DNA of 64,000 nucleotides from Azolla caroliniana (GCA_043228905.1 JBHGNT010000016.1:558001-622000); one strand, 5' to 3'. Positions 13,501-57,313 are shown, counted from the first letter of the stretch. Numbers and translations: made by a program. Notes: generated by a model not told the origin, from the sequence alone.

Positions 13501-14522
13501 TATGAGCTTTTTGATTCATGGGGGCACTCTTGTTTGCCCATACATGACTTCTACCACAGCTTTACTTTTTCCTTCATGTCTCTTGTCCTGAATTTCAAAA
13601 CTTAGATTTTGATAGGTCATATCATAGCCTACTTTGTTGGCTTTCATTCAACTATTTGAACTCTGAAATCCGATATCATATGAGGACGCTATGAGCTTTT
13701 TGATTCATGTGGGCGCTCTTGTTTGCCCCTACATGACTTCTACCACAACTTTACATTTTCATTCATGTCTTTTGGCCTGAATTTCAAAACATAGATTTTA
13801 TTACGTCATATCATAGCCTCCTTCATTAGCTTTGATTCAACTTTTTGAACTTTGAAATCCAATATCATATGAGGATGCTATGAGCTTTTTGATTCGTGCG
13901 GGCACTCTTGTTTGCCCCTGCATGACTTCTAGCACAACTTTAAATTTTTCTTGAATTTCAAAACTTAGATTTTATTATGTCATATCATAGCCTACTTCAT
14001 TGGCATTGATTCAACTATTTGAATAATGAAATCCAAATGCGTAGAGCTTTTTGATTCACGTGGGCGCTCTTGTTCGCCCCTTCATGACTTCTGCCAAAGG
14101 ATTACTTTTTCCTTCATGTCTCTTGGCCTGAATTTCAAAACTTAGATTTTATTAAGTGATATCATAGCCTACTTAGTTGTCTTTGATTCAACTATTTGAA
14201 CTCTGGAATCCGATATCAGATGACGATGCTATGAGCTTTTTGATTCACGTGGCCACTCTTGTTTGCTCCTACATGACTTCTATCACAACTTTAGTTTTCC
14301 GTTCATGTCTCTTGGCCTGAATTTCAAAACATAGATTTTATTAGGTCATATCATATCTTCCTTCGTTGGCTTTGATTCAACTATTTGAACTCTGAAATCC
14401 AATATCATATGAGGACGCTATGAGCTTTTTGATTGATGGGGGCGTCGTTGTTTGCCCCTGCATGGCTTCTACCACAACTTTAAATTTTCATTCATGTCTC
14501 TTAGCCTGAAGTTCAAAACTTA
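4550..14522. repeat. 189-bp tandem satellite, subfamily B, grading into a further variant after ~10 kb
   Basis: Monomer ATTTGAACTCGGAAATCCGATATCCTATGAGGACGGTATGAGCTTTTTGGTTCATGTGGGCGCTCTTG... TGAACTCGGA recurs at 7521 and 7710 (189 bp). Colinear with subfamily A and in the same orientation, but clearly divergent. Confidence 0.95.
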
Positions 14523-14524
14523 CA

Positions 14525-14833
14525 ACCGTTGATTTTCTTGTTCCAAAGCAAGGAACTTCTCTTTCAAGCATTGTAGCTTTGAGAAAATGGATTGATATTC
14601 TTGAGCGCTAACAATGGCCATAGTATGAGAGAAAAGAGGAATGAGAGATTAGTATGAAGGGAGGGAGAAGTAAGAAGATAAAGGAAGAGAAGGAAGGAGG
14701 GAAAAATCGGTTCAAGTTGTACGGAGCAGTACTAAGACAGAGAAGTATTGTAAGGAACAGTACTAAAACAAAGAAGGAATTAGTACTAAAAGATGAGGAT
14801 TAGTACTAAGGGAGGTGTAGAACTCTCGAGAGA

Positions 14834-14884
<51 letters not shown>

Positions 14885-15107
14885 GATAACAAAAGATATA
14901 TATTATGTTAAGGGAATATACAATAGTAGCTAGGAGGCTTAAGACTAATGTTGAACCAATTTGGTTCAAAATAATGCTTTGTGCCTCCTTTTATAGTGTT
15001 CCCAGGAGTACTCCTGAAGTTTCTAGAATGTTCTAGAGAAATCTGGAATATACATCAATTTTCTATAGTAAAACCTAAATGAAAATAATATCTTTTATAT
15101 TACAACA
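14525..15107 (-). mobile_element. Possible degraded LTR fragment
   Basis: Reads TGTTGTA... from 15107 on the minus strand, with a TATA-like TATAAAAGGAGGC near 14990 and a (GA)n tract at ~14836-14879. No TSD or partner LTR found. Confidence 0.3.
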
Positions 15108-15172
15108 TATAGTCTAATGGTCAAGAGCTTGACTCATGTTACATAAGGTCATGGGTTCGAGTCTCCTTATAT
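15108..15172 (+). other. Degenerate tRNA-like / SINE-head sequence
   Basis: A-box-like TAGTCTAATGG (15110-15120) and B-box GGTTCGAGTC (15154-15163) at tRNA-like spacing. No convincing cloverleaf. Confidence 0.35.
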
Positions 15173-15563
15173 CACGACATAAGGAAGGATGCTCACTTTC
15201 ACCAACTTCTATTAGTCTATGCATTGATGAATTAGAAAAAATGGTTACAAAGTTTATAAAGGAAGAGGTGTTGAAGAAGTTGCCATTATGAATGTAATCA
15301 TCATGCATTTGTTATATTGCAGATGTGTGGATATAGTGTTTTTCGCAAATACTTTAGGATATGTTACAAAAGCTTATGAATAAACATTATGTACAACAAT
15401 GCCCCAAATATATTGGCATTTAAGATCATAGATGGAACGAATGTGTTATTTGTTGCTTAGAGGTGGGAAAGAGAAGCATATTATGCTACCTGTTGATTAG
15501 AGAACACATGCAATCATCAAGAAATTAAGTGTTGGGTTCTCAAGAAATACATTTTCAACATTT

Positions 15564-16500
15564 ATGCATCATAAAGCAAGTGTGTTACATCTAATCTTAC
15601 AAACCATTTATCTGTATCCTGCATCCAACTAGAACACAATAATTTCTTTTTGTGTCTTTCGGATTTTTTTGTTGGCACCCATGCAATTCTAAGATGTTGA
15701 TGCGAGGACGTTTCTCCTGATCAGCATAAAATCGAGCACGATCTTGAGCTGTCTTGACATTTTCTTTGTTTGAACCTTAAGCATGTATTTGACAACCCTT
15801 TCTATGGCCATGATCTCAAAGAGAAGTTATCCCATCTCAAGCAGTAGGACGGTACATGACGTTCGTTACTTCACTTGGACAAAGTTTGTAAGAAAATGCT
15901 TTTGGACATTTTCAAATTCTTTCCAAGTAAATGTAGGATACTACCTCCCTATACTTCCATCCTAGAGAGAAGCATCATTATATTTGTCCGAAAATGAGGT
16001 CTTTGTACAATGCCAATGTATCATGATATGGGAAAAATTTGGAGTCTCACGCATCACACATTATACTAAATATGTTGCCCCTAACTACAAAACCCTACTC
16101 TTCGCTGAGTACGGAAACAACACACGTCGATACATGTTAGAGCCCATCTTGTTGTCTTACATCTGAATGACTGCTTCCATGAGACTTAGTTCACATGCAC
16201 TGTGATGTGAGACAAGGCGTTGGTGTACAAGTGATGAGAGCAGTCGATGATGCACACTTTGCCCGAAACAAGTTCGAGCTTCTGAGTTTCACACTTTGAT
16301 ACAATGTTGTGCCATTGAACACATTCGACTATGCTTTCCACACATCTTCGGGCAAACCCAATCTATGTACAAACTTCTCTCATTGTCACAATGTGTGCAC
16401 TCCTAATTACAATATTCATTGGTAAAGTATTTTAAATATCGAAAGTCCCTACTTTCTAGAACAAATGTATTATGTGGAGATGTAATATTTTTGGTCATAT
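15564..16500 (+). mobile_element. Decayed LINE 3' end with an inverted 5' segment (15564-~15971 on minus, ~15972-16500 on plus)
   Basis: Minus strand reads TWKEFENVQKHFLTNFVQVK*RTSCTVLLLEMG*LLFEIMAIERVVKYMLKVQ...WMQDTDKWF..HLLYDA. Plus strand continues ASLYLSENE...ASMRLSSHAL*CETRRW...CTLCPKQVRASEFHTLIQC, a LINE ORF2 C-terminal zinc-knuckle-type motif. Confidence 0.7.
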
Positions 16501-16515
16501 TTGAGCTCTAGAAGA

Positions 16516-16538
16516 CCCTAAACCCTAAACCTTAAACC
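16516..16538. repeat. Short plant telomeric repeat tract (CCCTAAA)~3
   Basis: CCCTAAACCCTAAACCTTAAACC immediately upstream of the Penelope-like RT fragment. Confidence 0.75.
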
Positions 16539-16549
16539 ATTTTCCTCTT

Positions 16550-17346
16550 CCCTTGTGGCGAGCCCTCGACAAGTTGCGGAGAAACCTAGACATTGTTATC
16601 ATGCAAGCAAATAAAAATCTAGGCCTTTATATCCTCGACAAAACATGGTATCTCAAAGAAGGGGCAAGACAATTGTCTGACCCAAATGTCTACTAGCAAG
16701 TAGACAAGGTTCCTATGGAAGACCTGTATTGGTGACCAACAGATATATGCAAAAATTTTGGGAATATTCTATCCTTGAATGAAACCAAGTTTCTGACAGA
16801 AAAACCTAGTAGTGGATTTATAGAGTATGCACACTCTATTTCCTACCAAAACTCCACAAACCAGTGGTAGTAGGTAGGCCTATCTGCTTCTATAAAGGTT
16901 TTATCTTCGAGCATGTATCCATTGGGTTACACCACAAGCTTTTTCCGATTCTTCTCCAACAAAAACAACACCTAATGGACTCATTGTCTCTCTTAAAAGA
17001 AGTTGACCGAGTTCGAATCCCTCCTGATACCATCCTCTTCACCTTTGATGTAAAATCGCTCTACCCAAGCATTCCCACCAAAGAAGGCCTTCAAACCTTG
17101 AAGAGTATGATCTTGGATGCATTTGACGCCAACACGTCAAACCTCATCATGACATTATCTGCCTTGGTGCTAGAATATCACTTTCTAGAATTCAATGCCA
17201 CATATTGGCATCAGATTAGGGGTATAGCCATGGGGAGTAATTTTGTTGTAGTATACGCTTGTCTTTTTCTGTGTTATATAGAGAACTTATAGGAACAAAC
17301 GTACAACCCCGAAGAGTTGATCTTCTACAAGAGGTACATAGATGAT
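16550..17346 (+). pseudogene. Penelope-like element (PLE) reverse transcriptase fragment, truncated at both ends
   Basis: Reads ALDKLRRNLDIVIMQANKNLGLYILDKTWYLKEGARQLSDPNVY*, then a frameshift near 16815, then LYFLPKLHKPVVVGRPI...FDVKSLYPSIP...QIRGIAMGS...YKRYIDD. These motifs are typical of PLE RTs. In-frame stops are present and homology ends right after YIDD. Confidence 0.85.
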
Positions 17347-19073
17347 CCTACCTACCTTGGCAACCCTACACTCATCTTTTGGTAATACAAGTCTGTTTTC
17401 AAAATTTTATGTCTCTTTTCTCCTTAATAGTGTGATTAATTTACTGATTCATAAATCTGAAGCCCTTAATTAGCATATTGGGCCATAATCTTGAATCTTA
17501 ATTAAACCACCACTATATCTCTCTCGATCCCTTTCTTTTCATTGGTTCCGCTCCCGCACACCAAATATAACCCTATAAAACCCAAAACCCTCATTTTGTG
17601 GTTCACAACATCAATTTTATTGAATGTTGATCATTTTGTTGTTTTTTGAATGTTTAGAACATAGTTTCAATGTGGTTTATGTAATTTCATCATGAAACAA
17701 TGAAATTTTTATGATCTAGATTTTGACCTCTATAAAACAAGTGCACTTAATAGAATGGCACACTTAAGTGGACACACACTTAACAGAATGGTTACTATAC
17801 TTGAACATACAACTAAAACTAGAGCATCACAAAAATATTACTAAATCAGGTCTTTCATTCTTCCATCTCAGCATGCACTCCTCATCCATTCAAGCTAAGA
17901 AAAACATTGCAATGATTAAATTGGTCTAAAGAAGATGTGGTGAACGACAAGACCACACCATGTGGTGTGGGCCACATCAATTGCCGCCCTCCCATGCACG
18001 CACACATCATATTGAAAACTTGGATCTGTCGAGACATTTTTTCCGAGCCTAAAATATGGCATCGATAAATGGTAATGTTGTACTATGTAAGGGTCGGGTG
18101 TGGTGGTGCCCACAACATTAGTCACCTGTAATGGTCGACGAATAGCTATTCATCGATGATTTCTGTTTTCAAATCCATTGGTGAGATTTCAGTTGCTAAA
18201 TGAAGGGTTCCCTTTTGTGGATCACAAACACTTCAAAAAGTTATAGAATGTGTGCTTAGAGATACATAAAGGAACAAAAGTGTTGGGACTACATTGAGTG
18301 AGTGGTACACATGCATGGAGTCACTTTATCCTCTTCCTAAAAAAAGTACAGACGGACAAATACTTTCAAACCCTACCATAAAATTAAATTATGGATTCCT
18401 CTCTCATGTCTCATGTGGATTGAGTGTGTGTGTGTGTGTGTGTTCTTCTTAGTAGTACATCCATCCTTAATGCTGATGATGAGAACAAGTGGGTAATTAT
18501 TGAGGAAATGTCCTCTTTGTCGCGCTCGATCTATATATGTACACTATAGTATGTTGTAGTTTGTATTTATAATGCAAATTTTGAGAGGAATATAAAAGAA
18601 AAAGGGCCTGAACTTTGAAGTAAAGGCTGACATACCAATGTTTTATTCTTTGGACGGGGGGTGAGGATGGACAGGCGGACCACCACCACCACTACCACCA
18701 TACAGACGATGGTCCAGAAAGAGAGAGAGAGAGAGTGTGTGTGTGTGTGTTTTCAAAGAGAATAAATTGGAATGCGTGTGTGAGAGACAAGAGTGGAATT
18801 TATTAATGTTTTCCTGGTCTTCATGCTTTTACTTTCTCCTCTCACCTGCTGCGCATCGTTCTCCAGAGAGAGAGAGAGAGAGAGAGAGCATAGAAATTTT
18901 GAAACGTTGAAGGGTGGATGGAGATAAGAAATGCCCTTGATTTTGAGAGACAGGGAGGTAGGGAGGGAGGGAGAGGATGTAGATGTGGGAAATTGAACCT
19001 CCGGGTAGGTGGTAAGCAGTGGTCAAGTGTATGATTGATCGTATGGGTGGTTCCTCATGTCATATGAATCATC

Positions 19074-19074
<1 letters not shown>

Positions 19075-19125
<51 letters not shown>
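19075..19125. repeat. (AGT)n microsatellite upstream of the HD-ZIP IV start codon
   Basis: About 16 copies of AGT, possibly inside a 5'UTR intron (donor-like GGTAAG near 19011, acceptor-like TTAG near 19159). Confidence 0.85.
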
Positions 19126-19166
19126 CAGTAATAATGATGATGATATAATGTTGCATTAGGCCATCC

Positions 19167-22100
19167 ATGGACACAACTGGCTCAGCAAATAACGATCAGG
19201 GATGTATTTTGGTACCCGAGTTGGTAAAGCTGGTGGCGGTGAAAGATGAGCCTGATCCTGAGGTGCAGGAGGTGAAGCTGATTCAGGACGGAACTGCTAC
19301 TAGTAGCATAGGGATCGTAAATAGAGAAGTGAAGGTCTCCCAAAAGATGAGTGGCACTGTCAAAACAGGTAGTTCGGGTGCAGATGAGCCATCACAGAAC
19401 GTAATAGATGATGAGGGTAACAGCTCCCGAAGAAGCATGGGGGATGATGATATTCATGGTGCCTCTGGAGACGATGATCAAGATCACGAACATGACTTTG
19501 ATGAACATGGATCCAAACGCCAGCGATGTCACCGCCATACGCCACAACAAATCTGTGAGCTCGAATCGTGAGTTAAATCGAACATGACTTTTTATGAGTT
19601 AAATCAGCGATGTAATTCGTTGTAAAGGTCATCTTTCGTTTTCTAGTGTGTTCAAACGATGCAACCTGCCCGATAAAAAGCTCCGGCAAGAGTTAAGCGA
19701 TGCACTTGGAATGAATGAAGAGCAAATCAAAGTCTGGTTCCAGAATAAGCGTATCCAGGTGAAGGTATGCATGGCTTCGTGCCATTGAATGTGAGTATTC
19801 TTGTATGTAGCTTCGTGGGACCATAAAAATTTATGGTTTTTTTTAAGGGAGTGGATTATGGGTCATGGCTTTCTTCATCAGGCCCTCCAAGAGCTTTCTG
19901 AAAATACACAGCTTAGAGCGAAGGTCAAGAGGATGAAAGCAGGGGATGTTACAATTGAGGATGCGGAAACCGTGACGCGCTGTTCCAGTTCACCCACTCA
20001 TGAGCCAGGCCCCAGCAGTTTGTATCAGCAAGATATCAATGAGTCGACAGAAAAAAAACATGCAGAAAGTGCAAGATTCAAAGAGGAGGTTAGATAGTCA
20101 ATGAAGATAATTTTTAAAAAATGTACTTACTTACTGCCGTGGATGGATAAAAGAATGACAGTGACTCATATCAGGCAGGGTATATAACTTCGTCATTTTT
20201 TCTTTCTTTTGTGCAGCTTGAGCGAGCATTGCCAAAGACGTTTGGTAGATCCTTGCCCATGACTAATTCTAGTGGTCCTCATCTGGCGATACCACTGGCG
20301 GCAGTTGCACCTGATGTGCTGTCTCTGGAGCTGGCTGTGGGAACGTACTCAGCTGCTCCCATGTCGGAAGTCGTTCATCATCTGCAACTGTTGCAGCATC
20401 GCGTGGGCAAGGACATCGAAGGACATGCTCAAACTAGAGGGAAATCAAAAGACATTCCAATTCCAGGATTGAACCAGCTAGTAGCCGGCATCAGTAGTCA
20501 GGAAACCGGACAAGTTCTACGAAGAACAGAACTAGAAAATGGTTTCGGGAGGAATTCTGAAGCAGGGTCCAGAGAAGATCGCGACGCTTCACAAGATGAG
20601 CATGACAATGGTTCTGGAAAGAACATGGAAGAAACTGGCTCTGGTGACGACCAAGAGTCTGAGGAAATGTGGAAGAAGAAACGGTATCAACGTCATACTG
20701 CTGAACAAATTCACCAGTTGGAACTGTAAGTGTGGGTGGTCTTGGTTGGAAATGATACTCTTAATTAATTACATGCATAATGCTAACCCACCTGATTTTC
20801 GTTGGTAGGTTCTTTAAGCAATGTGCTCATCCAGATCAAAGGCAGCGAGAGCGGCTAAGTGCTATGCTAGGCTTGAACATGCGGCAAGTGAAGTTCTGGT
20901 TCCAGAATCGTCGGAATCAGATGAAAGTAGGATACGTCGTATGAAATAAGGTATCAATTATGCGCCTTATTTGGATGACTAACCAGAGAAATTTACTGTA
21001 TTTCTGTTTGTATCATCAGAACCTGCAAGAACGGTATGACAACACACAGCTCAGAGCGGAGATTGATAGGTTGCGAGCTGAGAATGTTACAATACGGGAA
21101 ACAATCAAACAAAAATTAGCCTCCTGTAGTGAGTCTACGTTAATGCAACAGGAAGCAATCGATGACGAAATGAAAAGAGGAACAGTAAGCATGGGTGAGG
21201 AGGTACAGATAAGTGGCTGTCTGAAGTTTTGAGATAATTTTACAAACTTTGTACTATGATATTTCTTCAAACGTCCAAGTGACAAGGGCCCCGCCACATA
21301 TTAATAACAGATGGAGCATGCTGCTGCAGCACAAGCTGCTGCGAATGGTGGCCCACTGTGTGTGAACGTATTCCACGATTCTCTATCTCTGGAGCTGGCC
21401 GTGGGGAGGCGTCCCACCTTTCAAGACAACATGGTGACTGGAATTAAAAGGGAGGAGGAGCAGCAGCAGCAGCAGCAAAGGAATCCCCCACAAACATTGC
21501 TGGGTGTTGCGCTGAGCTGGCCAGGAGGCATCTCAGGGACTGACAAAGCTGCCGTCATGGATTTGGCGGACAGCGCTTTGCAGGAGATTCTCCTAATGGT
21601 TCAAGCTGAAGAGCCCTTGTGGATCAAGAGAGGGGTGGGTGATCAAGCTCTGGACACTGATGCTTACACGACGCGGTTCTCAGGCAGGATGGGGATGCAG
21701 ACACCAGGGCTAGTCACTGAGGCCAGCAGACACACTGGAGTTGCTACTATGAGCAGCCTGGTTCTTTTGGATGCCCTCATGGATGCGGTAGGTGGTTTAA
21801 TTATATGCTTTTGGCTAATGGTCTTTTTACATCGGATACCCTGCTGTTTCTTAATTCTTGTGCAAACACACCGTGTCTTGGCCAGAATAAATGGATGCTA
21901 ATGTTCCCAAGCATCATTTCCAAAGCTCTCACTATCAAAGTTGTTTCGCCAGGCACAGGTGTAACTCTTGATGGGGCTTTGCAGCTGGTAAGCGATCTTG
22001 TCAATTTCAATTTGAATTGTGCAAATATTGTACATAATCTAATTAATGCTCTTTCCAACCCTAGTACAGATGTATGCAGAACTCCAAGTTCTTTCTCCTC

Positions 22101-23632
22101 TCCTGCAAACACGAGAAATGTATTTTCTACGCTTTTGCAAGCATGTTGCTGATAAGCTGTGGGTCGTGGTAGATGTATCCATGGACTGTTTGAGTGATAA
22201 ACCTCCCCCATGCCTCCTCCAATGCCGGCGACGTCCCTCTGGTTGTGTGATTCGAGAGATGCTCAATGGACACTCTCAGGTATAGCGTCTTTTATTTTAC
22301 TTTCTTTTCATTCTGGTCCTTCTTTCTTGTAATGAACCCAGTCCCACTGATTGCCTGACAGGTTATCTGGTTGGAACATGTGGAAGTTAATCAGCACAGC
22401 TCGAGTCATGTTTACTTGCCCTTTCTCAGCAGTGGCTCGGCTTTTGGAGCCAAGAGATGGGTTTGTGCATTGCAACACTACTGTGAGGATATTGGCAGCC
22501 TGCTTGCTACAAACATGGCCACAACTCGTGATCTCGGAGGTACCAAGCTTGTCTTGCGTGTGTTATGGCTCACACAGTAACTCTGGTTAAGCTTTTGATT
22601 ATTTTAAAAATTTTGCAGTCATAAACACACTGGAAGGACGGCGTTCCACTCTTCGTCTTGCAAAGAAAATGGTCAATAGGTTTTGTTCGAACGTGAGTGC
22701 AGCTTCAAATGGGTCTTGGATTGATCTTCCACAAACCAATGGGAATGACATCCATTTTATGGTACGAGATAATGCAGGAGATGGCATTATCCTTTGTGCA
22801 GCAACATCAACTTGGCTCCCTTTCCCTCATCACCGAGTATTTGAGTTTCTGAGAAGTGAAAAGTACCGATCTCAGGTCAGTGATTAATGATACTTCTCTG
22901 CACACTTGTCTCTGGGTATGAGCATCTATTAAAGCATGCTTGATAGTTCTTTTCTATAGAGGAATGTGCTGGCGAATGGCAGTGCTCAGGAAATGAGCCA
23001 CATTGGCAAGGGCCAAAATCCTGGAAGCGGTGTCTCGCTTCTTCGTGTGAATGTAAGAGCATATTATCATTACCTTTACCTTGGATCGCCTTGCATTACT
23101 TAGTTGTCTTAGGGTTTAGGGCTTTGCATATTGATTGTGGTGTTTCAACTAACCCCTTATATTATATGTCGTTGTGTAGGGCCCAAGTCAAAGCAATATT
23201 CTCATCCTTCAAGAGAGTTGGATAGACGAATCTTGTTCACTCCTGGTATACATGCCAGTGGATTTCACAACGATCACGAGAGTGTTACGAGGTGAAGACC
23301 CATCAGATTTTCTTCTACTGCCTTCTGGTTTTGCGATTCTTCCTGATGGTCCATTAGAGAATCATGGAACGACCTCCATGCTGAACACTGATGGTGTTTC
23401 TGTGTCGAATATTGGGTTAAGAAAGTCGTCCAATACATTGCCCAGCAATTCCCTTCTAACAGTTTCATTTCAGACTGTTGTGAACCACATGTCCAAATCA
23501 CCCGGAAAACCATCTGTCAACCCAGTAAGCACTGTTCTATCAAGTACTATGGAGTCTATGGATACAGTCAGTAAGATTATCCTAAATACTCTGCAACATA
23601 TCAGGATGGACTTGGAAAGTTCAAACGCCTGA
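19167..23632 (+). CDS. Class IV HD-ZIP (GL2/ML1/HDG-family) transcription factor with two tandem homeodomain-zipper modules plus START and SAD domains; 13 exons, about 1101 aa
   Basis: All introns are GT-AG and the frame is consistent. Exons: 19167-19567, 19647-19764, 19882-20088, 20217-20725, 20809-20926, 21020-21202, 21311-21787, 21886-21987, 22070-22279, 22362-22539, 22619-22875, 22960-23052, 23180-23632 (3306 nt). HD1 is HRHTPQQI...[14 protein letters not shown] and HD2 is [10 protein letters not shown]...[19 protein letters not shown] motifs: [50 protein letters not shown] motifs: [26 protein letters not shown]. Confidence 0.9.
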
Positions 23633-23999
23633 TGTAACTTGCTGTCATACTGATGTCACAACTTTATAATTAATTGTATCACTATAGCAAACAGGTTATC
23701 ACATGCCTCGATATATTTTGTGAATGGGAATAAGTAGGAAAGAAATGGTCTATTGTTTGGAAACAATATACGTTACAGATTATCCACTGAGTTAACACTA
23801 CTAAGGTATGGGAGGCGGGTACTGAGGAGTACAAGGGTGTGAGTGCAGGTAGCTAGCTAGATTTCAAGAAGCACATAAATCTCTCTAGAAGGGCACTAAT
23901 TTCCTCCCTAGGGAATAAACTTAGTGCTGCAGGAGGGTACTCCAGATCCTCTCATTATATAATATGCAATAATGCATTCAAGGATGTAATTCAACCAAA

Positions 24000-24790
24000 T
24001 GACACTTATCAACTAATCTATTTCTCCGGCTCTACTTGACAGAATCTAGCGGCATTCCTCTTGTTTCCTGGTGTCAATATCTTGTTTATGGGAGGAATGT
24101 GCATCTGACTATCTACGTGTTTGAGCTCACGGGATGTATGAGTATCCATGTAGCTAGATTGTTATCCATGTAGCTAGGTTGTTGTATAAAGCCATCTGAC
24201 AAATCTTCTATGTGTATCATATGGATCGCTTAACCCCAACCTCTATGGCATGTCTCTATCCATCGGGTACATGAATATTCATGTCATTAAGTCTTAGGAT
24301 GAAACCATCTTCCCTGGTATGACGATGTTCTCAATAAAATATTCATCTCTTTATCCTCTTAGAGGAGTCTAAACATGTCTTGCTCATATAATATTGGATG
24401 AGATCCAATTGAGGTACCCAATCCATGGCAAGTTATTACCAAGAGACTCCTGAGACTTGGTGATTGTGGATTCCTCTAGTGATATCTAGGGAGTTTGTAC
24501 CCACTTGTAAACTGAGTTATAGTGGAAGTTCTGCTACCCTAAGGGTCCTGTGGTTTTCTCCTCGAGTTGGGGTTTCCAAGTAAAGCCTCGTGTATTTGGT
24601 TGCTATTATTTATTTTTTGTTGTATTGGCTATTACTTCTTGTCAGCGTGCCAATCAGATCGTGTCACTATTTGTGGACGGTGGTTGTTTGTTTGATTTAT
24701 TTGGACGGTGCTTAGCCTCTCCTTAGATTGGTGAAACTTATCTCGGGAGCTTAAGGGAAGTTCATTGAAGACTTCAAGTGTAGTCCAACA
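24000..24790 (+). mobile_element. Putative solo LTR
   Basis: TG...CA ends flanked by CCAAA at 23995-23999 and 24791-24795. Internal U5-like GTGGTTTTCTCC...GGGGTTTCCAAGTAAAGCCTCGTG resembles the copia LTRs in this window. The terminal inverted repeat is only TG/CA, so a chance match is possible. Confidence 0.45.
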
Positions 24791-26138
24791 CCAAATCTAA
24801 AATAGATGAGTCAAATCTAAGTGTCTGAAATTGAGGGCATTGGGCAAGAGCAATTGTCAAACAAACACTCGCGAGTAGCTAGCTTGGCGAACCTCTAACT
24901 TTGCAAACTCTCACTCTCTTCTCTCACAAAGACTATGTTAGTAAGAAGTTAACGAAAACACTTCAAAAGCTTAGGCATTAACTATTTCAAGATATGTATG
25001 TAAATAAATACTCATGATAATGCATTAACCATACCTCGATTACTAAATAGTCAAAACACATGATTTTTGTGTCTCTTTGAAGTGATTAACACCAATAACT
25101 AATTAATATGAAGGAGGAGAAAAAGGAAGATAGAGAGGTCAAGCTTAATTTCATAAACAACTTTTCGAAGTAAGGATCTAGAAGAAGCTAATAAGTCACA
25201 AAAAGGGACTTTTATAGCTTTTCTAAAGAGCTTGTCCCCTTTTACATTGGGGTGGCCTCTTGCTGAAAAGCTCTAGAGCAACTTTACTTTACTTCCCTTT
25301 TTTTTGTTCTTGTGTTAATCCTTGGTGTCTTAATCAGTGTTGATGTCTTTGTGGGTCGTGGGTTGTGTTATGTATGACAATCGCTTAACATTGTTGCACA
25401 TTCAAAACCTAATCCAACCTCCGAACACATTCAAATAACTTATGGGTTCCACTGACAACATAGTAACCATAAAAGATTTAGTAACTCGTGAGAATTTATC
25501 TTTTAATCCTCATTTGTTAGAAAAACATTTTGTTGCTCAAACCAAACATTAACGTTTTGTTCATACAAAGCATGTCAATATAATTTTGTATGAACCCTAC
25601 CTAAGCATGTCGTTGACATTGAAGACTTCTCAAAAGCCATAAAATGAAATTTTGTTAAGATTATTATTAAACATGTTTTGGAATTTTCTCTAAGTAATGA
25701 TTTCATTCATTCTTACCGAGAGAATTAAATAAGAAAAAACTTATTGTGCTCCAAATTTAAGAATAGCTTTATAATTGTTGTATGATGTTTCGGTTGTGAA
25801 ATTGAACTAAGAAGAGTTGAATAAAGTAAAAGTAATTTCTTCTGGTTCCAAATGACATGTACACCAATAAGAAAATGGCGGATAAAAAAAAAAGACAGAA
25901 ACATAAGTTCCAAGCCCAAGGAAATAATCACACAGGTCGCCTCTGATATATCATATAATACAACCCCAATAACGAAGGAAAGCCACCAAAAAATATATGA
26001 TGTCAACATTTGACAATGGTGATGAGGACGACAAGAGCAGGGAGGGTTTAGGGTTTAAGGTTCAGAGTTTTGGGTTTAGGGTTTTCGAGGAGGAGGAGGA
26101 GGAGGAGGAGGAGGGCATTGTTGTTAGCATTATTATAT

Positions 26139-27070
26139 TTAATGCAGCTGCTCGGCAGCAGGCTTGTCTTTTTTGGAGGAAAAGAGATGAGTGAGACCAT
26201 TGAACATGGTACCATTAATTTTGGAGGCTTTTCTGAAGCCAGGCGTAATATACATAACAGGGGTGACTCTAACAGCAGCTGCAGCAGAATAAGAGGTGGA
26301 CCTCTCAAGGGAGCGGCTAGTTAATACATGAGATCCATGATGCAGATATTCACACGCACCTATCCCGATCCCGCCGCTAGATGAATATGACGACGATGAT
26401 GATAATGATGCCGATGATCGCATCTGCCTATTACCATGATGAGCTACACCCCCAGGTTTTATCAGCGCCTGCTGATGATTCGACCTCCTCTTCAAAGGTT
26501 TGGGGCTGCTGTAGCTTCTGTCCAAACCCCTCACATGAACATGATGATGTTGAACATTAAAAGGCTGCTGTCTCGTGTCTACCGCTTTCTTATTCAAATT
26601 CTTATTCCTACTGTCAGCACCTCCGGAACTAGTAGTCGAACTATTATTACTCTCTGAAGTCTCAGCAGCTAGAAGTGTAGAGCTGCTACTAGAGCAGTTT
26701 ATAGCCTTCCCAGCGCCTGATGATCTGCTGTCCAGTGAAGTTCTTCCTTGGCTCGCCGAAAGTAGCCCCTCATCCCCTACATTACAGGTACTAGATGCTG
26801 TAGCACTTTTTGCAGCCCCGGGCCTCGTTACTCGCATCTGCTCGCATATACCTGGGCATCTAGCTCTAATAGATGTATTGATCATATTATTAGAGTTGCT
26901 GTTGTTATTTCTATGCTTAACAGAGGCCCCAATCCCTACTACATTAACTGTTTTCTGGACGTGATGTAACTCCATAGTATTCATCATGCCCTCTGAGTCA
27001 TCTGAGCTTTTGGATGACCTGCTTCCAGACATGTCCCAGCTGCTGCTGCTGCTGCTTCTGCTTTGAGCCG

Positions 27071-27106
<36 letters not shown>

Positions 27107-28415
27107 TCCTCACCATCATTAAACTTGTCGTTGGACAGAGTTCAGGGTCCGGCTGCAGCATAGCATTTGCCGGATCTGCAAATTGAGAATACTGATCATG
27201 AGTGCTGGAGCTACACAAGAAGAGGGCACTAGGGCTTATAGAACCAACGGCTGCTCCTGTAATATGGCGTTGGTGATCGTTGTGGAAATTTCCACCTGAA
27301 ATTAGACTGTCTGAAGCCTCAAGTGCTGCCGACGCATTTACCCCAAGTGCCGCTGTTGCTACATGAGCTTTCAGATCCGTAACACTGTCAAGCGACCTTC
27401 TGCCTGGGGCAAGCAGCTGAGGATCTGAGGATCTCATACCTTTTCGCATCATCAATTTAATGCTGTCGGTGCCCCTGCTTGATAACTCTGATCTGCTATG
27501 TTTATTATTATTGTTGTTGTTGTTATATTCATGAATCTGAACTTTCTTGAGCCCCAACAGTTCTTTCCACCTGCTAGTGCATGTGGGCGCCTTGGGTGAA
27601 ATAGGATGTTGGGCTAATTCTGTCCTCATTACATCGGCTCCACTGCTACTAGCGGAATAACCCATATAATTGTAACTTACCTGCTCTGGCGCGGTTGTTC
27701 CAGCACTGCCATGGCAAGTGTATAATTGCATCGTCACATCTTCTTCTGAGCAGTAAGCATGTAAACTAGTTTTCATGCTCCAGTTTGCGAGGATGGACTC
27801 CGATGTGATGGAGCGAACTGAATTATTAGTACTGTTCTGCAAATGAGGGCTATCATTACTGTAGAGAGGTCGGAGTTTGCCATCGAAGAAGAGCTCATCA
27901 GCTGCCAACATGCAGGGATATTGCAAATCGTGGACAGCGCTATGCTCTTGGCCTCGGATTACTGTAGTGGACTTGGAGAACTCGAATTCAGTTGGTGATC
28001 CTTTCCAGCTTGAATTAGCGATCGGTGCCAGCTGTCTGGCTGGAGAGCCGATCCCATTAGGACAGCAGCCAGACATCAACTGTATGTCACTCTCTTCGGA
28101 CTTGTCAGATATACTCATACTTTCCGCTGCTGCTGCTGCTGCGCCACCAGCAGTTGTAATAGATCTGGCGAAATCCCTGGAGAAAGAAACCCGGGGAGCA
28201 AGCCATTCGAGAGTACCCCCCCCTGCCTCTGCTTCTGATGATGATGAATTGTTATACGATGAGAAATAGGGATTCGATAAGGCAAAAACTAGGCTCTCGT
28301 CATCATCATGACAATCTTCGTCATTACCATCATCATGGCCTGCACGGCCTGATCCTGGGGCAGGATCCACTGTTGAAAGTTGTGCCATTTTCTGCAGAGA
28401 CGTCCCAATCCGCAT
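26139..28415 (-). CDS. Intronless Ser/Gln/Asn-rich protein, MAKR/BKI1-like superfamily; 758 aa from ATG 28415 or 749 aa from ATG 28388
   Basis: Uninterrupted 2.3-kb ORF with short conserved islands PRVSFSRDF, EFEFS, AADELFFDGKLRPL, SPKAPTCTSRWKELLGLKK and a C-terminal VRVTPV. The listed 28601 start is a TTG, so the first in-frame ATG was used. Family assignment is from motif recall. Confidence 0.8.
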
Positions 28416-29467
28416 CAGGGTTTCCGATGAAGTTAATTCATGGCATTTGAATTGGTAATCGTACGAAATATGAACTCGTGTGCAGCAGAAAACAACAATT
28501 ACCCGTAGTGCCCCGCTACTAAGAAAACCATGTTCTCTGCACGCACTTTCGTAAGTATACAGTATCACTTTAACTCTTGTTGTTAGGACACACTCACTCA
28601 ACTTCCTTACATTCTAGATGTGAAAGCTCAGAATTGCAGGGGAGGGGAGGGGAGAGGAGTTTCCAAATTCAAAGATTGGAGGAGAACCTGGAATAGTTGG
28701 GGCGAGGGGTAAGGTGCATCACAGAAACGCAAAGCAAATAGTTACTGGATTTAATGGAACCAGAAGACTAGAACGGGTCAGGGGATTTATAAATCTGACA
28801 TCCTAAGTAAGTGATCGGCACAACACCCCTTTTTTCTGGCTTAATATGAATGAATGCAGGGCAGGTACGTATATACATACCACGATTTAGAGTGCCGTCG
28901 CTCCGCCTCTTGATGTGGTTGCTGTTGCTGTTGCTGTTGCTGTTGTGTAAGGTGAGTGAGTGCACTGCTGCTGCGAGGAAAGGAGGGAGGGCTAGCGTAT
29001 GTATTAGTGCGATGCAATAAAAGAAAAGGAAAGGAAAAGGAAAGGAAAGGAAAGAAAGAAAGAATGGCAGCGATGCTTACGAAATTACCTTTGGATGTGG
29101 GTCCCAGCCCCACCCCACACGGTACACCCAAGGGCCAATCCTACAACCCACAAAAAGCAAGAAGGAAAAGAAGATAAATCTTTAGTTGAATTGAATTGGT
29201 AAAGAACGATCCCACTATCTATCATGCATTGAGAAAGAAAGGGGAGGGTGGGAAGTTACTCATTCCACAGCGTAAGATTGGGACTGACTCACCCGACTGG
29301 CTGGTGAATAAGAAGTTGAGTTCAACCCCCCCCCCCCCCCCCCCCTTCCCTTTCATAATAATAATAATAATATACATATGTATGTTTCCTCTCTCTAGAG
29401 AGCATTGAAATACCCTATGGGGTATCAAAAGCATAATATTGTGTTTGTATGGCATGGATCGACCAAC

Positions 29468-52544: not shown

Positions 52545-52738
52545 TAGTACCCGGCGTGAAGCCGGATGAAGAGACCCTGACTACGGAGCCGGATGCTGAA
52601 GACCCCGGTTACGGAGCCGGATGACGAAGACCCGGCTACGGAGCCGGATGCTGAAGACCCCGGTTACGGAGCCGGATGACGAAGACCCGGCTACGGAGCC
52701 GGATGATGAAGATTCCGGTTACGGAGCCGGATGACGAA
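52545..52738 (+). repeat. 27/28-bp tandem repeats in the U3 of the F LTR (also at ~57408-57601)
   Basis: Alternating ACGGAGCCGGATGCTGAAGACCCCGGTT and ACGGAGCCGGATGACGAAGACCCGGCT units. Confidence 0.9.
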
Positions 52739-53239
52739 TGTACCCGGAGAGAGATCCGGATGCGGGGACATATTTGTGAATATGTTTGCCAAGAGCCCCT
52801 TGAGGCTATATTTGTAAATAGCCCGAAAGTCATATGTGTATAAATATGACTTAGGGCAAACAGTTTTTGTGGTTGCTTATTTTTCTGTTTTTCACCTAGA
52901 GAGAGTGAAGAGAGCAGCCGCGAGAGAGGGAGAGAGAGAGAGAGACGAAGAGGTCGTTGCCTCTGTGTATTACCGCCGCCTGTGGCGAAGACAGTGAGCT
53001 CAAGGTTGTTGCCTTGAAGCTTCACCATTGTACATCCCTGTTCATAGTGATAGTTGGAGTTTGAGGACTCCCGTGGTTTTTCCCATTTAGGGTTTTCCAC
53101 GAAAAATATCCTGTGTACTCTTCTCTCTACAGTCTCCGTGTACATTGTATTTCCTATTTTCTGTGAGTTGATCCTATTCCTCGGTTGTGGCCGAGCATCG
53201 TTTTACAACAAAGTGGTATCAGAGCGACTGTTGCAGAAA

Positions 53240-56200
53240 ATGGAAGGCGGCGGCAGCGCACAGCCGATGATGATGGTGCTGAATGCACAGAATTACGCCG
53301 ACTGGAAGATCAAGATGGAGGATCTTCTGATTGTTCGGGACCTGTACGAACCGATTGACAGGTCGGAAATACCGAAAGGGGTACTTGAGTCGGAGTGGAA
53401 GCTCCTGAACCGGAAAGCCGTAGCGACGATCCGACAATATGTCGATGTAAGCGTCCTACAACACGTGGCGAACGACACCAACGCATACGAGATGTGGAAG
53501 AAGCTGTCGGGCCTCTACGAGAGGAAGAATGCGTTGAACCGAACCTCCCTGATGAGGAAGATAGTGAATCTCAAGTACCGGGACGGCGAGAGTATGGTGG
53601 AACACGTAAGCACGTTCATGGGATTCGTGAATCAGCTTGCGGCGATCAAGTTCCCGTTGGAGGATGCAATGCAAGCCATCATCCTGATGTGTACATTGCC
53701 GGAAAGCTGGGAGAACTTGGTGGTGACTCTCAGCACCTCCTGCACCGAAGATAACTTGTCTCTACAAACGGTAAAGACAAGTATTCTAAATGAAGAAGCG
53801 CGTCGGAGAGATAAGGAACCGGCCTCCGACTCGAAGGCGCTGCTTACCGAATCGGAACGGGGAAGACAATGGAACCGGAGTCCGCAAAGACGGGAGAAGT
53901 CGGGGACCCGGTCGCAATCAAGAGGAAGACCCACATGCTTCCACTGTGGGAAGCCGGGGCACTTCCGGAAGAATTGTCGGCATTACCGAAAAGACAACGG
54001 AGCCGACGACACCGATTCGAAGAAGTCACCGGAGAGAAACGGTGCATACCGGGGAGCCACGGACCGGAGAGGTCCGGATCGGCGAGGGCAGGACCGGAAA
54101 GGAACGACAGCACTCGCGGCAAGTGAAGAAGAGATAATGCTCATTACCGAAGAGACGGAGCTGAACCTTGCCGGTGAGGAGATGACCTGGGTGGTCGATT
54201 CCGGAGCATCGTTCCATCTGACCCCGGAGAAGAAATACTTCTCATCCTACACAGCCGGTGAGCACGGCTGTGTCCGGATGGGAAATGAAGGTACATGCCG
54301 GATTGCCGGCATAGGAGACGTGTGGCTGATGACATCAACCGGATGCAAGATGCTGCTGAAGGATGTGCGACACGTTCCGGAGGTCCGATTGAACCTGATC
54401 TCGGCTGGGAGGCTAGATGATGAAGGCTACACGGGTAGCATCCGGAACGGTGTCATGAAGTTCAGCAAGGGGAGCCTGATAGTGGCTCGGGCCCGGAAGG
54501 TCAACACACTGTACCTGATGAATTCCCGGCTATGTCCGGAGGAGCTGAACGTGGCAGCCGACACTGCCGGTGAGCTGGGGCACAAGAGACTGTGCCACAT
54601 GAGTGAGAAAGGGATGAAGAGGCTTGCAGAAGACAACCTTATTCCAGTGAAGCATGTGCACCTGGAGAAGTGCACCGATTGCCTGGCCGGTAAGCAGAAC
54701 CGAACCTCTTTCCACTCAAGGCCACCGACGAGACGTGGCGCACCATTGGAGTTGGTGCACACTGATGTGTGTCAGGTAGAAACGAAGTCACATGGCGGAG
54801 CCCAGTACTTCGTAACCTTCATAGATGATCACAGCCGAAGACTGTGGACGGCACCGTTGAAGACAAAGGACCAAGTGTTGTCCGTCTTCAAAGAACTCCA
54901 TGCAAGAGTGGAAAGAGAATCCGGCAAGAAGCTGAAAGCGATACGAGCGGATAACGGAGGGGAATACCGGGGGCAGTTCCAGGAGTACTGTCGCTCGAAG
55001 GGAATCCGACTCGAGTTTACTGTGCCGAAGACGCCGGAACTGAACGGGCTGGCCGAGAGGATGAACCGGACCATAATGGAGAGGGTCCGGAGTATGCTGG
55101 CGCATGCGAAATTACCCAAGGGATTTTGGGCTGAGGCAATGTCGACGGCGACATATGTGATAAATAGATCACCCTCAGTACCTTTGGACGGAGACACGCC
55201 GCAGAGAGTGTGGACCGGTAGGGAAGTATCCTACCGGCATCTGAAGGTGTTCGGGTGTCTCGCATATGTGCATGTGGCAAAGGACCGGAGAGGAAAGCTA
55301 GATCCAAAGACCCGTCCATGCATATTCCTCGGTTACGGCGACGACGAGTTCGGCTACCGAGTATGGGACCCGGTCGACAAGAAGATATTCAGGAGTCGTG
55401 ATATCATCTTCATGGAGGACAAGACACTCGCCGACTGGGAGTCGGAGAAGAAGATGAAGAGCTCCAAGTCGACCGGTGAGAATCAACTCTACGAGGAGCA
55501 GTCCCGACCGACAAGGGACCGGTTAGCACTCGAGGATCCGGCCGAAGACGGTGAAGAAACAGAACCGGCCGAAGAAGATGAAAATGATACCGGAACCGTC
55601 CCCGATCCCGAAATGGATTCGGATGAAGAAGAATCGGAAGAACCGGTTACCGAAGCTCCGGAACGGAGATATCCTCTAAGAGAGAGAAGGGCCCCCCGGA
55701 GATTTCCGGAACCAGAGCACGTGCTGCTAACCGACGAGGGGGAGCCGGAGAGCTTTGAAGAAGCAAAGCATGACACCAAGAGCCGCAGGTGGTTGAGTGC
55801 CATGCAGGACGAGATGGATTCCCTGCATGAGAACCACACATATGAACTTGTGGAGTTGCCGAAAGGAAAGCGGGCACTTCGAAACAAGTGGGTGTTCAAG
55901 CTGAAACCGGGAGATGCCGGAAACCCCTCGAGATACAAAGCCAGGATCGTGGTGAAGGGGTTTCAGCAGAAGAAGGGCGTCGACTTCGACGAGATATTCG
56001 CCCCGGTAGTGAAGATGACCTCCATTCGGACGGTGCTGAGCATAGCGGCAAGCATGGACCTCGAGGTAGAACAGATGGACGTGAAGACGGCATTCCTTCA
56101 CGGTGACCTCGAAGAAGAGATATACATGCAGCAACCGGAAGGATTCGAGAAGAAAGGGAAGGAGCACCTGGTATGCCGGTTGAAGAAGAGCCTTTACGGA

Positions 56201-57313
56201 CTGAAGCAGGCTCCCCGGCAATGGTACCGGAAGTTCGACTCCTTCATGACCGACGAAGGGTACCTCAAAACGCAGTCCGACCACTGCGTGTTTGTGAAGA
56301 AGTTCGAAGGAGGAGACTTTCTAATACTCCTCCTGTACGTGGACGACATGTTGATCGTCGGACGGGACCAGGTCAAGATACGGATGCTGAAGAAGGCTCT
56401 TCACCGAACCTTCTCAATGAAGGACCTGGGTCAGGCGAGGCAAATATTAGGGATGCACATCATCCGGGACCGGAAGAAGAAGCAGTTGTGGCTGTCACAG
56501 GAGAAGTACGTAACGAAGGTGCTTCACCGGTTCAACATGTCGGAGGCGAGACCGGTCGGATCGACCCTCCCGGCAAACTGCAAGCTGTCCAGCAAGCAAA
56601 GCCCCAAGACAAAGGCTGAAAAGGAGGATATGATGAAAGTGCCGTATGCCTCAGCCGTCGGGAGCTTGATGTACGCCATGGTGTGTACGAGACCGGACAT
56701 CGGATATGCAGTCGGAGTGGTGAGCCGGTACATGAGCAATCCCGGCAAAGAGCATTGGAACGCGATCAAATGGATACTGCGATACCTGAAGGGCACAGCG
56801 AATGTGTGCCTCCGATTCGGCTCCGGTAAACCCGAACTCGACGGTTTCACCGATTCGGATATGTCGGCTGATGCAGATACCAGCCGGTCCACGTCAGGGT
56901 ATGTGATGACGTATGCAGGGGGAGCCGTTTCGTGGCAGTCGAGGCTGCAGAAGACGGTTGCGTTGTCAACCACGGAGGCGGAGTACATGGCAGCTGTTGA
57001 AGCCGGCAAGGAAGTAATATGGATGAAGGACTTCATTAGAGAGCTCGGTATCCGGCAGGAGGAGTACCGACTCTACTGCGACAGTCAAAGTGCAATCCAC
57101 CTTGCGAAGAACGCGGCCTATCACTCCCGGACGAAGCACATCCAGCGAAGATATCACTGGATCCGGGAAAGGATAGAAGACAAGGAGTTCGTGCTGACAA
57201 AGATCCACACGGACGAGAACGGGTCGGATATGCTGACCAAGGTGCTCACACCCGACAAGCTGGAAGCATGCCGGAAGAGGATCGGATTGGAGAGACATCC
57301 CATGCCGAAGTGA
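53240..57313 (+). CDS. Gag-Pol polyprotein of copia F (1357 aa)
   Basis: Single open frame from ATG 53240: gag with CFHCGKPGHFRKNC, PR WVVDSGAS, INT (HKRLCH, CTDC, D-D-E), RT YVDD, RNase H (DSD, EAEY, CDSQ, DMLTK). Confidence 0.95.
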   Translation: MEGGGSAQPMMMVLNAQNYADWKIKMEDLLIVRDLYEPIDRSEIPKGVLESEWKLLNRKAVATIRQYVDVSVLQHVANDTNAYEMWKKLSGLYERKNALNRTSLMRKIVNLKYRDGESMVEHVSTFMGFVNQLAAIKFPLEDAMQAIILMCTLPESWENLVVTLSTSCTEDNLSLQTVKTSILNEEARRRDKEPASDSKALLTESERGRQWNRSPQRREKSGTRSQSRGRPTCFHCGKPGHFRKNCRHYRKDNGADDTDSKKSPERNGAYRGATDRRGPDRRGQDRKGTTALAASEEEIMLITEETELNLAGEEMTWVVDSGASFHLTPEKKYFSSYTAGEHGCVRMGNEGTCRIAGIGDVWLMTSTGCKMLLKDVRHVPEVRLNLISAGRLDDEGYTGSIRNGVMKFSKGSLIVARARKVNTLYLMNSRLCPEELNVAADTAGELGHKRLCHMSEKGMKRLAEDNLIPVKHVHLEKCTDCLAGKQNRTSFHSRPPTRRGAPLELVHTDVCQVETKSHGGAQYFVTFIDDHSRRLWTAPLKTKDQVLSVFKELHARVERESGKKLKAIRADNGGEYRGQFQEYCRSKGIRLEFTVPKTPELNGLAERMNRTIMERVRSMLAHAKLPKGFWAEAMSTATYVINRSPSVPLDGDTPQRVWTGREVSYRHLKVFGCLAYVHVAKDRRGKLDPKTRPCIFLGYGDDEFGYRVWDPVDKKIFRSRDIIFMEDKTLADWESEKKMKSSKSTGENQLYEEQSRPTRDRLALEDPAEDGEETEPAEEDENDTGTVPDPEMDSDEEESEEPVTEAPERRYPLRERRAPRRFPEPEHVLLTDEGEPESFEEAKHDTKSRRWLSAMQDEMDSLHENHTYELVELPKGKRALRNKWVFKLKPGDAGNPSRYKARIVVKGFQQKKGVDFDEIFAPVVKMTSIRTVLSIAASMDLEVEQMDVKTAFLHGDLEEEIYMQQPEGFEKKGKEHLVCRLKKSLYGLKQAPRQWYRKFDSFMTDEGYLKTQSDHCVFVKKFEGGDFLILLLYVDDMLIVGRDQVKIRMLKKALHRTFSMKDLGQARQILGMHIIRDRKKKQLWLSQEKYVTKVLHRFNMSEARPVGSTLPANCKLSSKQSPKTKAEKEDMMKVPYASAVGSLMYAMVCTRPDIGYAVGVVSRYMSNPGKEHWNAIKWILRYLKGTANVCLRFGSGKPELDGFTDSDMSADADTSRSTSGYVMTYAGGAVSWQSRLQKTVALSTTEAEYMAAVEAGKEVIWMKDFIRELGIRQEEYRLYCDSQSAIHLAKNAAYHSRTKHIQRRYHWIRERIEDKEFVLTKIHTDENGSDMLTKVLTPDKLEACRKRIGLERHPMPK

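What the first reader, a model, noticed from the sequence alone, without database searches (positions are those of the whole stretch)
19167..23632. Class IV HD-ZIP gene with two complete homeodomain-zipper modules in one reading frame
Seen: the unit [acidic SGDD(D)Q leader - homeodomain split by a phase-2 intron - 118-bp exon - zipper exon - LSLELAVG motif] occurs twice (exons 1-4 and 4-7), followed by one START+SAD. Exon 4 joins the tail of module 1 to the leader of module 2 in frame with no stop, and all 12 introns are GT-AG. The two copies are highly diverged yet both remain open, which suggests an old duplication kept by selection. Known: ATML1/PDF2/GL2/HDG proteins have a single HD-ZLZ and bind L1-box DNA as dimers. 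Inference: this protein may act as a single-chain pseudo-heterodimer, or read a composite site, under control of one lipid-binding START domain. I do not recall this architecture being described but cannot exclude it.
Basis: partly seen in the sequence, partly recalled or inferred. Interest (0 to 1): 0.85.

Follow-up and report, generated by a model that had tools for sequence, protein, structure and literature searches.

The report
Fern double-homeodomain HD-ZIP IV gene
This fern gene is spliced into one transcript that encodes a skin-cell-type transcription factor with two DNA-binding modules instead of the usual one, a layout shared by other ferns, and it likely lets one protein chain do what normally takes a pair, although in this species the first module's pairing helix is decaying.

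Summary
Confirmed. Thirteen exons and 12 GT-AG introns give an open 1101-aa class IV HD-ZIP protein: two homeodomain-zipper modules, then one START-SAD. All 12 introns are spliced in transcript contigs from 8 runs, including the exon 3-4 join. The same ~1100-aa layout occurs in Pteridium, two Adiantum species, Ceratopteris and 4 unnamed clusters. Trees show one old duplication inside a fern lineage, with a single-homeodomain sister. Both modules carry fixed changes. Recognition-helix Thr54 becomes Ile in HD1 and Asn in HD2, a zipper-core Asn becomes Ile/Val/Leu, an LxLxL EAR-type motif is gained and the loop CxxC is mostly lost. Likely mechanism: a tethered, asymmetric homeodomain pair acting as a repressor; this is inferred and untested. 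Against it here: zipper 1 evolves near-neutrally in the window's lineage, a relative's low-coverage contig has HD1 N51K, and a common alternative acceptor stops translation after HD1. The architecture sits in databases as 'hypothetical protein'; my literature searches found no description.

The parts
19167..19567 (+). Exon 1: ATG, acidic SGDDDQ leader and first part of homeodomain 1 (from 19515)
   Evidence: covered by spliced contigs X8 record 13 and X14 record 1
19647..19764 (+). Exon 2 (118 nt): helices 2-3 of HD1 (E43, V47, N51, I54)
   Evidence: Pfam PF00046, 49.4 bits; joints
19846..19901 (+). Alternative 3' acceptor in intron 2 (exon 3 starts at 19848, +34 nt). It shifts the frame to TGA 19899-19901 and gives a 190-aa HD1-only product
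   Evidence: joint in runs X1, X3, X7, X8; translation; site kept in L014
19882..20088 (+). Exon 3: zipper-loop-zipper 1, degenerate in this lineage
20217..20725 (+). Exon 4, the junction exon: tail of module 1, linker, leader and start of HD2 (from 20673)
   Evidence: finds the two-HD relatives; linker predicted disordered in the relative P0001
20319..20333 (+). EAR-type motif 1 (LxLxL; LSLEL)
20809..20926 (+). Exon 5 (118 nt): helices 2-3 of HD2 (R43, F47, N51, N54)
   Evidence: Pfam PF00046, 52.6 bits
21020..21202 (+). Exon 6: zipper-loop-zipper 2; first zipper intact, no CxxC
21311..21787 (+). Exon 7: EAR-type motif 2 (21383-21397) and start of the START domain
   Evidence: START begins here by alignment to P0001
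21886..22539 (+). Exons 8-10: START lipid-binding domain
   Evidence: Pfam PF01852 on exons 9 and 10; model of P0001 matches START folds
22619..23632 (+). Exons 11-13: START-adjacent domain (SAD, PDF2_C) and stop codon
   Evidence: Pfam PF25797 on exons 11 and 13; joints

Best explanation
This is an intact, spliced fern class IV HD-ZIP gene whose homeodomain-zipper-LxLxL module was duplicated inside the gene long ago, and the ancestral protein likely works as a one-chain asymmetric homeodomain pair that likely represses epidermal target genes. Shown: the gene model and splicing; the same layout in other ferns; one duplication after the split from a single-HD sister; fixed, different residues in the two recognition helices; a shared zipper-core change; two LxLxL motifs. 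Inferred: zipper 1 pairs with zipper 2 across the ~120-145-aa flexible linker, so HD1 (Ile54) and HD2 (Asn54) read unlike half-sites of a non-L1-box element. Inferred: the Asn-to-hydrophobic core change favours self-pairing over pairing with ordinary paralogues (coiled-coil rule, recalled). Inferred: the two LxLxL motifs recruit TOPLESS-type corepressors, and the single START-SAD controls stability as in GL2/PDF2. In the window's own lineage zipper 1 is decaying, so this species' protein probably relies mainly on HD2-zipper 2, with module 1 reduced to an accessory homeodomain and a repression motif.
For: Gene. Splicing: 12 of 12 introns seen among 8 runs laid. The exon 3-4 join is in X1, X8 and X14, and in X3 and X5 with one other letter. 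One 3490-nt contig (X8 record 13) runs through exons 1-7, as far as was laid. Relatives: 7 full-length two-HD clusters plus a Pteridium cluster; 11 unnamed members encode the whole 1107-1116 aa on contigs of at most 3550-3922 nt, so they must be intron-free. Trees: 12 two-HD rows form a clade (100/100), sister to single-HD P0024 (100/100). HD1 modules (100/99) and HD2 modules (98/98) group together (100/100); AU tests reject either module grouping with P0024 alone, p 7.5e-5 and 5.2e-5. HD1 is as conserved as HD2 among 7 Polypodiales-group rows (0.95 and 0.95; linker 0.56). Residue 54 is T in 105 of 105 single-HD rows, I in 22 of 22 HD1 and N in 23 of 23 HD2. The second zipper a-position is N in 102 of 107 singles, I in 22 of 22 module 1 and V/I in 19 of 22 module 2 (the rest read L). 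An LxLxL between zipper and START occurs in 2 of 107 singles and in 23 of 23 rows for each module. AlphaFold2 folds both HD-zipper units of P0001 at pLDDT about 80-90 with a disordered linker. GL2 recruits TPL/TPR through an LxLxL motif (10.64898/2026.08.26.747311, passages).
Against: No binding, DNA-site or phenotype data exist. The 23 two-HD rows include isoforms and near-identical cluster members (8 clusters plus the window), so the counts are not independent. Among 95 more diverged homeodomains of the representative set, 16 lack T54, 4 of them with N. [quoted passage not shown] In the window's lineage zipper 1 carries 26 of 76 window-only changes, against 12 of 70 in zipper 2 (p 0.024) and 53 of 398 in START-SAD (p 3e-5). 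Against relative L014 it has pN 0.105 and pS 0.076, while zipper 2 has pN 0.021 and pS 0.054 (p 0.003; p 0.047 without the six codons beside an indel). L014 reads N51K in HD1 (one contig, coverage 1.7). HD1 lacks Arg43, a residue reported to strengthen L1-box binding (PMC12652440 section 3.4). The frameshifting acceptor appears in 4 runs and the in-frame one in 3; the 3490-nt contig uses the frameshifting one. The one run nearly identical to the window (X2) does not cover the exon 3-4 join. Contigs are assemblies, not single molecules.
Confidence: 0.45

Rival explanations
1. Two chains dimerise through START-SAD, and like zippers pair between chains (1-1 and 2-2). The result is a four-homeodomain complex that binds two separate sites, for avidity or DNA looping.
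For: START-SAD drives GL2/PDF2 dimerisation (10.1101/2021.11.23.469727). START and SAD are well conserved here. The e/g charges suit like pairs as well as mixed pairs. HD1-HD2 spacing is loose, 278-302 aa.
Against: A tethered partner at high local concentration should win if the zippers are compatible (inference). The two zippers share the same core pattern.
Confidence: 0.28
2. HD2-zipper 2 does the DNA binding as in an ordinary HD-ZIP IV dimer. Module 1 is kept for a second EAR motif or for protein contacts and contributes little to DNA reading.
For: HD1 has lost Arg43, His25 and Gln30 and has an acidic residue at 42. In the window HD1 also has Cys5 and Val47, zipper 1 is near-neutral, L014 has N51K, and a frameshifting acceptor removes everything after HD1. 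This is probably the best reading for the window's own species.
Against: Across the other ferns HD1 keeps W48, F49, Q50, N51, R53 and R7-H8 and is 95% conserved among the Polypodiales-group rows; its first zipper is 85% conserved. Even against L014 the HD1 exon shows pN 0.011 and pS 0.09, on few sites.
Confidence: 0.25
3. Two adjacent genes, a dead upstream fragment, or an assembly or annotation artefact.
For: The frameshifting acceptor in intron 2 is common. No single-molecule long read was seen.
Against: Exon 4 is one open exon that carries both modules. In-frame joins are seen. Full-length two-HD proteins exist in 4 named species and in 11 unnamed intron-free contigs.
Confidence: 0.02

Closest known systems
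Class IV HD-ZIP (C4HDZ) factors: ATML1, PDF2 (PDB 9LPE), GL2, HDG/ROC; nearest single-HD rows are P0024 (unnamed), Psilotum c28090, Pteridium c22012 and Ceratopteris KP509_12G070600
   Same: HD-ZLZ-START-SAD order, START fold and clear homology. The fern clade lies beside Amborella ROC8 and Ginkgo Gb_05082 (94/97), which fits euphyll clade II of Zalewski et al. (PMC3773374; placing ROC8 there is recalled).
   Different: Two HD-ZLZ modules; T54 changed to I and N; zipper-core Asn made hydrophobic; loop CxxC mostly lost; LxLxL gained in both modules; conserved 3'-UTR motif pair not found in this gene.
Animal double-homeodomain proteins (DUX4 and relatives)
   Same: Two homeodomains in one chain; weak sequence hits. 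Multi-HD proteins are reviewed in PMC4901127.
   Different: Independent origin. The DUX4 chains in the PDB hold both homeodomains within about 150 aa; here each homeodomain has its own zipper, they lie ~280-300 aa apart, and a START-SAD follows.
GL2 with its N-terminal EAR motif
   Same: An HD-ZIP IV with an LxLxL motif that recruits TPL/TPR.
   Different: GL2's working motif precedes the homeodomain. Here a motif follows each zipper and arose separately, in the stem of the fern clade.

Membership tests
Class IV HD-ZIP | Homeodomain with HD-ZIP IV-type helix 3 ([10 protein letters not shown]) | tested here: met
   HD2 fully; HD1 of the window reads [10 protein letters not shown]
Class IV HD-ZIP | Zipper directly after the homeodomain | tested here: met
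   met for module 2 and for module 1 of relatives; degenerate in module 1 of the window
Class IV HD-ZIP | START followed by SAD, with no C-terminal MEKHLA | tested here: met
   no MEKHLA family reported in the Pfam scans and the protein ends after PDF2_C
Class IV HD-ZIP | Nests among C4HDZ genes in a START-SAD tree | tested here: met
   (68 rows, all C4HDZ; no class III outgroup included)
Class IV HD-ZIP (canonical form) | A single HD-ZLZ module | tested here: not met
   two modules
Class IV HD-ZIP (canonical form) | CxxC in the zipper loop | tested here: not met
   105 of 107 singles; 3 of 23 module 1; 0 of 23 module 2; absent in the window
Class IV HD-ZIP (canonical form) | Thr54 in the recognition helix | tested here: not met
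   I54 and N54
Class IV HD-ZIP (canonical form) | Conserved paired 3'-UTR motifs (most members) | tested here: not met
   motif pair found de novo in 5 of 8 paralogue 3' regions; best window match has 5 mismatches for the first motif within 1.2 kb; 1 of 9 paralogue regions gave no last exon
Class IV HD-ZIP | Binds the L1 box as a dimer; START binds lipid | not testable with these tools
   needs DAP-seq, EMSA and lipid-binding assays
EAR-motif repressors | LxLxL motif | tested here: met
   two copies, conserved in a variable region
EAR-motif repressors | Binds TPL/TPR and represses | not tested
   no assay or model of this pair was run

The most novel reading that the evidence does not exclude
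Leptosporangiate ferns evolved a self-dimerising double-homeodomain HD-ZIP IV. One chain holds two differently tuned recognition helices, joined by zippers that avoid all paralogues, reads a new asymmetric DNA element and carries two corepressor motifs: a plant counterpart of DUX-type factors. One fern lineage is now losing the first module, with a frameshifting splice switch beside it.
Probability: 0.4. Interest if true: 0.85.

Novelty: new variant of a known kind. Interest (0 to 1): 0.72.

Why it matters
HD-ZIP IV factors are core regulators of the land-plant epidermis and are described as single-homeodomain dimers. A fern-wide double-module clade with changed DNA-reading residues is a natural experiment in how a transcription factor escapes its paralogue dimer network and gains new specificity. 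It can be tested now: Ceratopteris richardii has two such genes (KP509_04G065600, KP509_1Z008300), and gene editing in a model fern is in print (search listing). The decay of zipper 1 in the window's lineage offers a built-in comparison.

Tried and rejected
Complex prediction of P0001 module 1 (105-245) with module 2 (388-520): no answer, score 0.30 against a mark of 0.34, controls not folded; it is not used as evidence either way. The full-length AlphaFold2 model gives no contacts, so it does not test zipper pairing. The idea that this clade is the missing leptosporangiate member of euphyll clade III was rejected: it does not group with the ANL2 rows. Fusion of a foreign module was rejected by AU tests. 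Other two-HD HD-ZIP IV outside the clade: none among the 148 new proteins in the best 150 of the representative search (one had a short extra fragment), none among 74 shorter proteins (two had short fragments), and none among the other listed rows of the 120 shown of 888; only the listed rows were examined. Classifying differences from the read tables was uninformative, because the lists are cut and hold no exon-2 site. A first metagenome scan found nothing. No Rfam match in 17000-26000. One L1-box-like site in 14000-26000, not meaningful. A paper search gave no source for the role of residue 54, so that point is recalled knowledge. Earlier findings were not available.

Full report
Observation. 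Thirteen exons between 19167 and 23632 join into 3306 nt, 1101 aa, with one terminal stop; all 12 introns are GT-AG and 79-128 nt. Pfam finds a homeodomain in exon 2 and again in exon 5, START in exons 9-10 and PDF2_C in exons 11 and 13 (11 of 13 exons were scanned). The two modules are 34% identical over 261 aa and share intron phases and the 118-nt exon. Exon 4 stayed open in 3 of 20000 shuffles. The own genome (523 Mb) has 13 matches to the homeodomain exon and 12 to a START exon; every other locus has one of each.

One transcript. I laid 8 of 21 listed runs, all as assembled contigs; only X14 is on record as RNA, the others are guessed to be RNA but show spliced joints. Every one of the 12 introns is skipped in at least two runs. 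The exon 3-4 join is seen in X1, X8 and X14, and with one other letter in X3 and X5. X14 record 1 covers exons 1-4 in frame. X8 record 13 (3490 nt) runs through exons 1-7, as far as was laid. Most of these runs are a few percent different from the window, so they are relatives. X2, which is nearly identical, shows introns 1, 7, 8 and 12 and the middle of exon 4, but not the 3-4 join. An alternative acceptor 34 nt upstream in intron 2 is used in X1, X3, X7 and X8, and the in-frame acceptor in X1, X5 and X14. The alternative shifts the frame and stops after 190 aa, leaving HD1 without a zipper. Contigs cannot give isoform ratios.

A fern clade. The junction exon alone retrieves 8 longer proteins among 2359 candidates, all with two homeodomains. 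Named members come from Pteridium aquilinum, Adiantum nelumboides, A. capillus-veneris and Ceratopteris richardii (two genes); NCBI calls them hypothetical proteins. Eleven unnamed members encode 1107-1116 aa on contigs of at most 3550-3922 nt. In a START-SAD tree of 68 rows the 12 two-HD rows form a clade (100/100), sister to one unnamed single-HD protein, P0024 (100/100), inside a clade with Psilotum, Pteridium and Ceratopteris single-HD genes. That clade lies next to Amborella ROC8 and a Ginkgo gene (94/97). In a module tree of 49 rows all HD1 modules group, all HD2 modules group, and the two groups are sisters (100/100). AU tests reject either module joining P0024 alone. So there was one duplication within the gene, older than the split between the window's lineage and the Pteridium/Pteridaceae group. 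The window's gene falls outside that group. With the small genome this suggests a water fern, which is my inference and was not tested; that split is of the order of 200 million years by recalled dates.

What changed. Numbering follows W48-F49-N51 (recalled convention). Residue 54 is Thr in 105 of 105 close single-HD rows, Ile in 22 of 22 HD1 and Asn in 23 of 23 HD2 (two singles and one truncated HD1 were too short to score). Among more diverged representatives 79 of 95 have Thr. That residue 54 touches bases is recalled; one search gave no source. HD2 keeps Arg43 while HD1 has Met, Leu or Glu; Arg43 is reported to strengthen L1-box binding (PMC12652440). The second a-position of the first zipper is Asn in 102 of 107 singles and hydrophobic in both modules. 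The loop CxxC, present in 105 of 107 singles and linked in print to redox control (as cited), survives in 3 of 23 module-1 and 0 of 23 module-2 rows. GL2 uses such a motif to bind TPL/TPR. These rows are 8 clusters plus the window, not 23 independent genes. HD1 and HD2 are each 95% conserved among 7 Polypodiales-group rows, the linker 56%. AlphaFold2 on P0001 folds both HD-zipper units and START-SAD and leaves residues 239-396 disordered; the fold matches START domains. The nearest solved structure is the PDF2 HD-zipper, 9LPE.

The window's own lineage. Its module 1 has a long branch (1.2, against 0.46 for module 2). Zipper 1 has 26 window-only changes in 76 sites, against 12 in 70 for zipper 2 and 53 in 398 for START-SAD; its last two core positions are Asp and Glu. 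A 1989-bp genomic contig of a relative (L014, coverage 1.7) gives pN/pS of 0.105/0.076 for the zipper 1 exon, with in-frame indels, 0.021/0.054 for the zipper 2 exon, 0.011/0.09 for the HD1 exon and 0/0.09 for the HD2 exon. The single HD1 change is N51K, which could be a sequencing error. The gene also lacks the paired 3'-UTR motif found in 5 of 8 paralogues. Module 1 is therefore conserved in the clade, but its zipper is being lost here.

Mechanism. HD-ZIP IV proteins bind DNA as dimers. A second, zipper-compatible module on a 120-145-aa tether most simply supplies the partner within the chain, and the different residues at 54 and 43 would make the pair asymmetric. Two LxLxL motifs point to repression. 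I give this 0.45, a four-homeodomain dimer 0.28, and an HD2-only binder with an accessory module 1 0.25; the last probably fits this species best. The architecture itself is near certain.

Known and new. It works like, and by descent is, a class IV HD-ZIP, but it fails four canonical features (single module, CxxC, Thr54, 3'-UTR motifs). Searches for a description found none; the library lacks most subscription papers. Seen: PMC3773374, abstract, passages and parts 2-3 of 11 of the body, no supplements; PMC12652440, passages, section 3.4 and 4,289 characters of supplement text, while its supplementary figures, which include fern proteins, could not be seen and might show the layout; 10.64898/2026.08.26.747311 and 10.1101/2021.11.23.469727, passages; PMC4901127, passages and one section; PMC9880897, passages, not relevant. 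None of the passages seen mentions a two-homeodomain HD-ZIP. Verdict: a real, conserved, apparently undescribed variant of a known family; interest 0.72.

Noticed in passing
window 19846-19901: A frameshifting alternative acceptor in intron 2, used in 4 of the 6 runs that show this intron and kept in L014. It would give a 190-aa HD1-only peptide or a decay target; possibly a regulated off-switch.
   Followed up: partly
window 18898-19166: The 5' leader is covered by transcript contigs from about 18900 and holds 12 upstream ATGs (several short ORFs) and a long (AGT)n repeat at about 19076-19125; possible translational control.
   Followed up: partly
L014, HD1 exon (window 19744-19746): Asn51 of HD1 reads Lys in a relative's low-coverage contig.
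   Followed up: partly
window 26139-28613 (-): An 824-aa open frame, rich in Ser, Gln and Asn, with short motifs such as ADELFFDGKLRPL and SRWKELLGLKK; by recall it resembles BKI1/MAKR-type membrane-associated kinase regulators.
   Followed up: no
window 34000-63200: A block of copia- and gypsy-like LTR retrotransposon frames, including a 1419-aa open gag-pol-like frame at 53054-57313 (+) with repeated flanks near 52636-53202 and 57499-58065, apparently nested in a gypsy-like element.
   Followed up: no
window 16813-17473: A reverse-transcriptase-like fragment about 1.7 kb upstream of the gene.
   Followed up: no
L015-L023 (paralogue 3' regions in G000): A partly complementary motif pair lies 200-350 nt after the stop in 5 of 8 paralogues, matching the description of the C4HDZ 3'-UTR element.
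   Followed up: partly
G000 C105 and C731: These small contigs repeat the HD-ZIP IV matches of C1 and C14 with identical scores; probably unplaced duplicate haplotypes.
   Followed up: no
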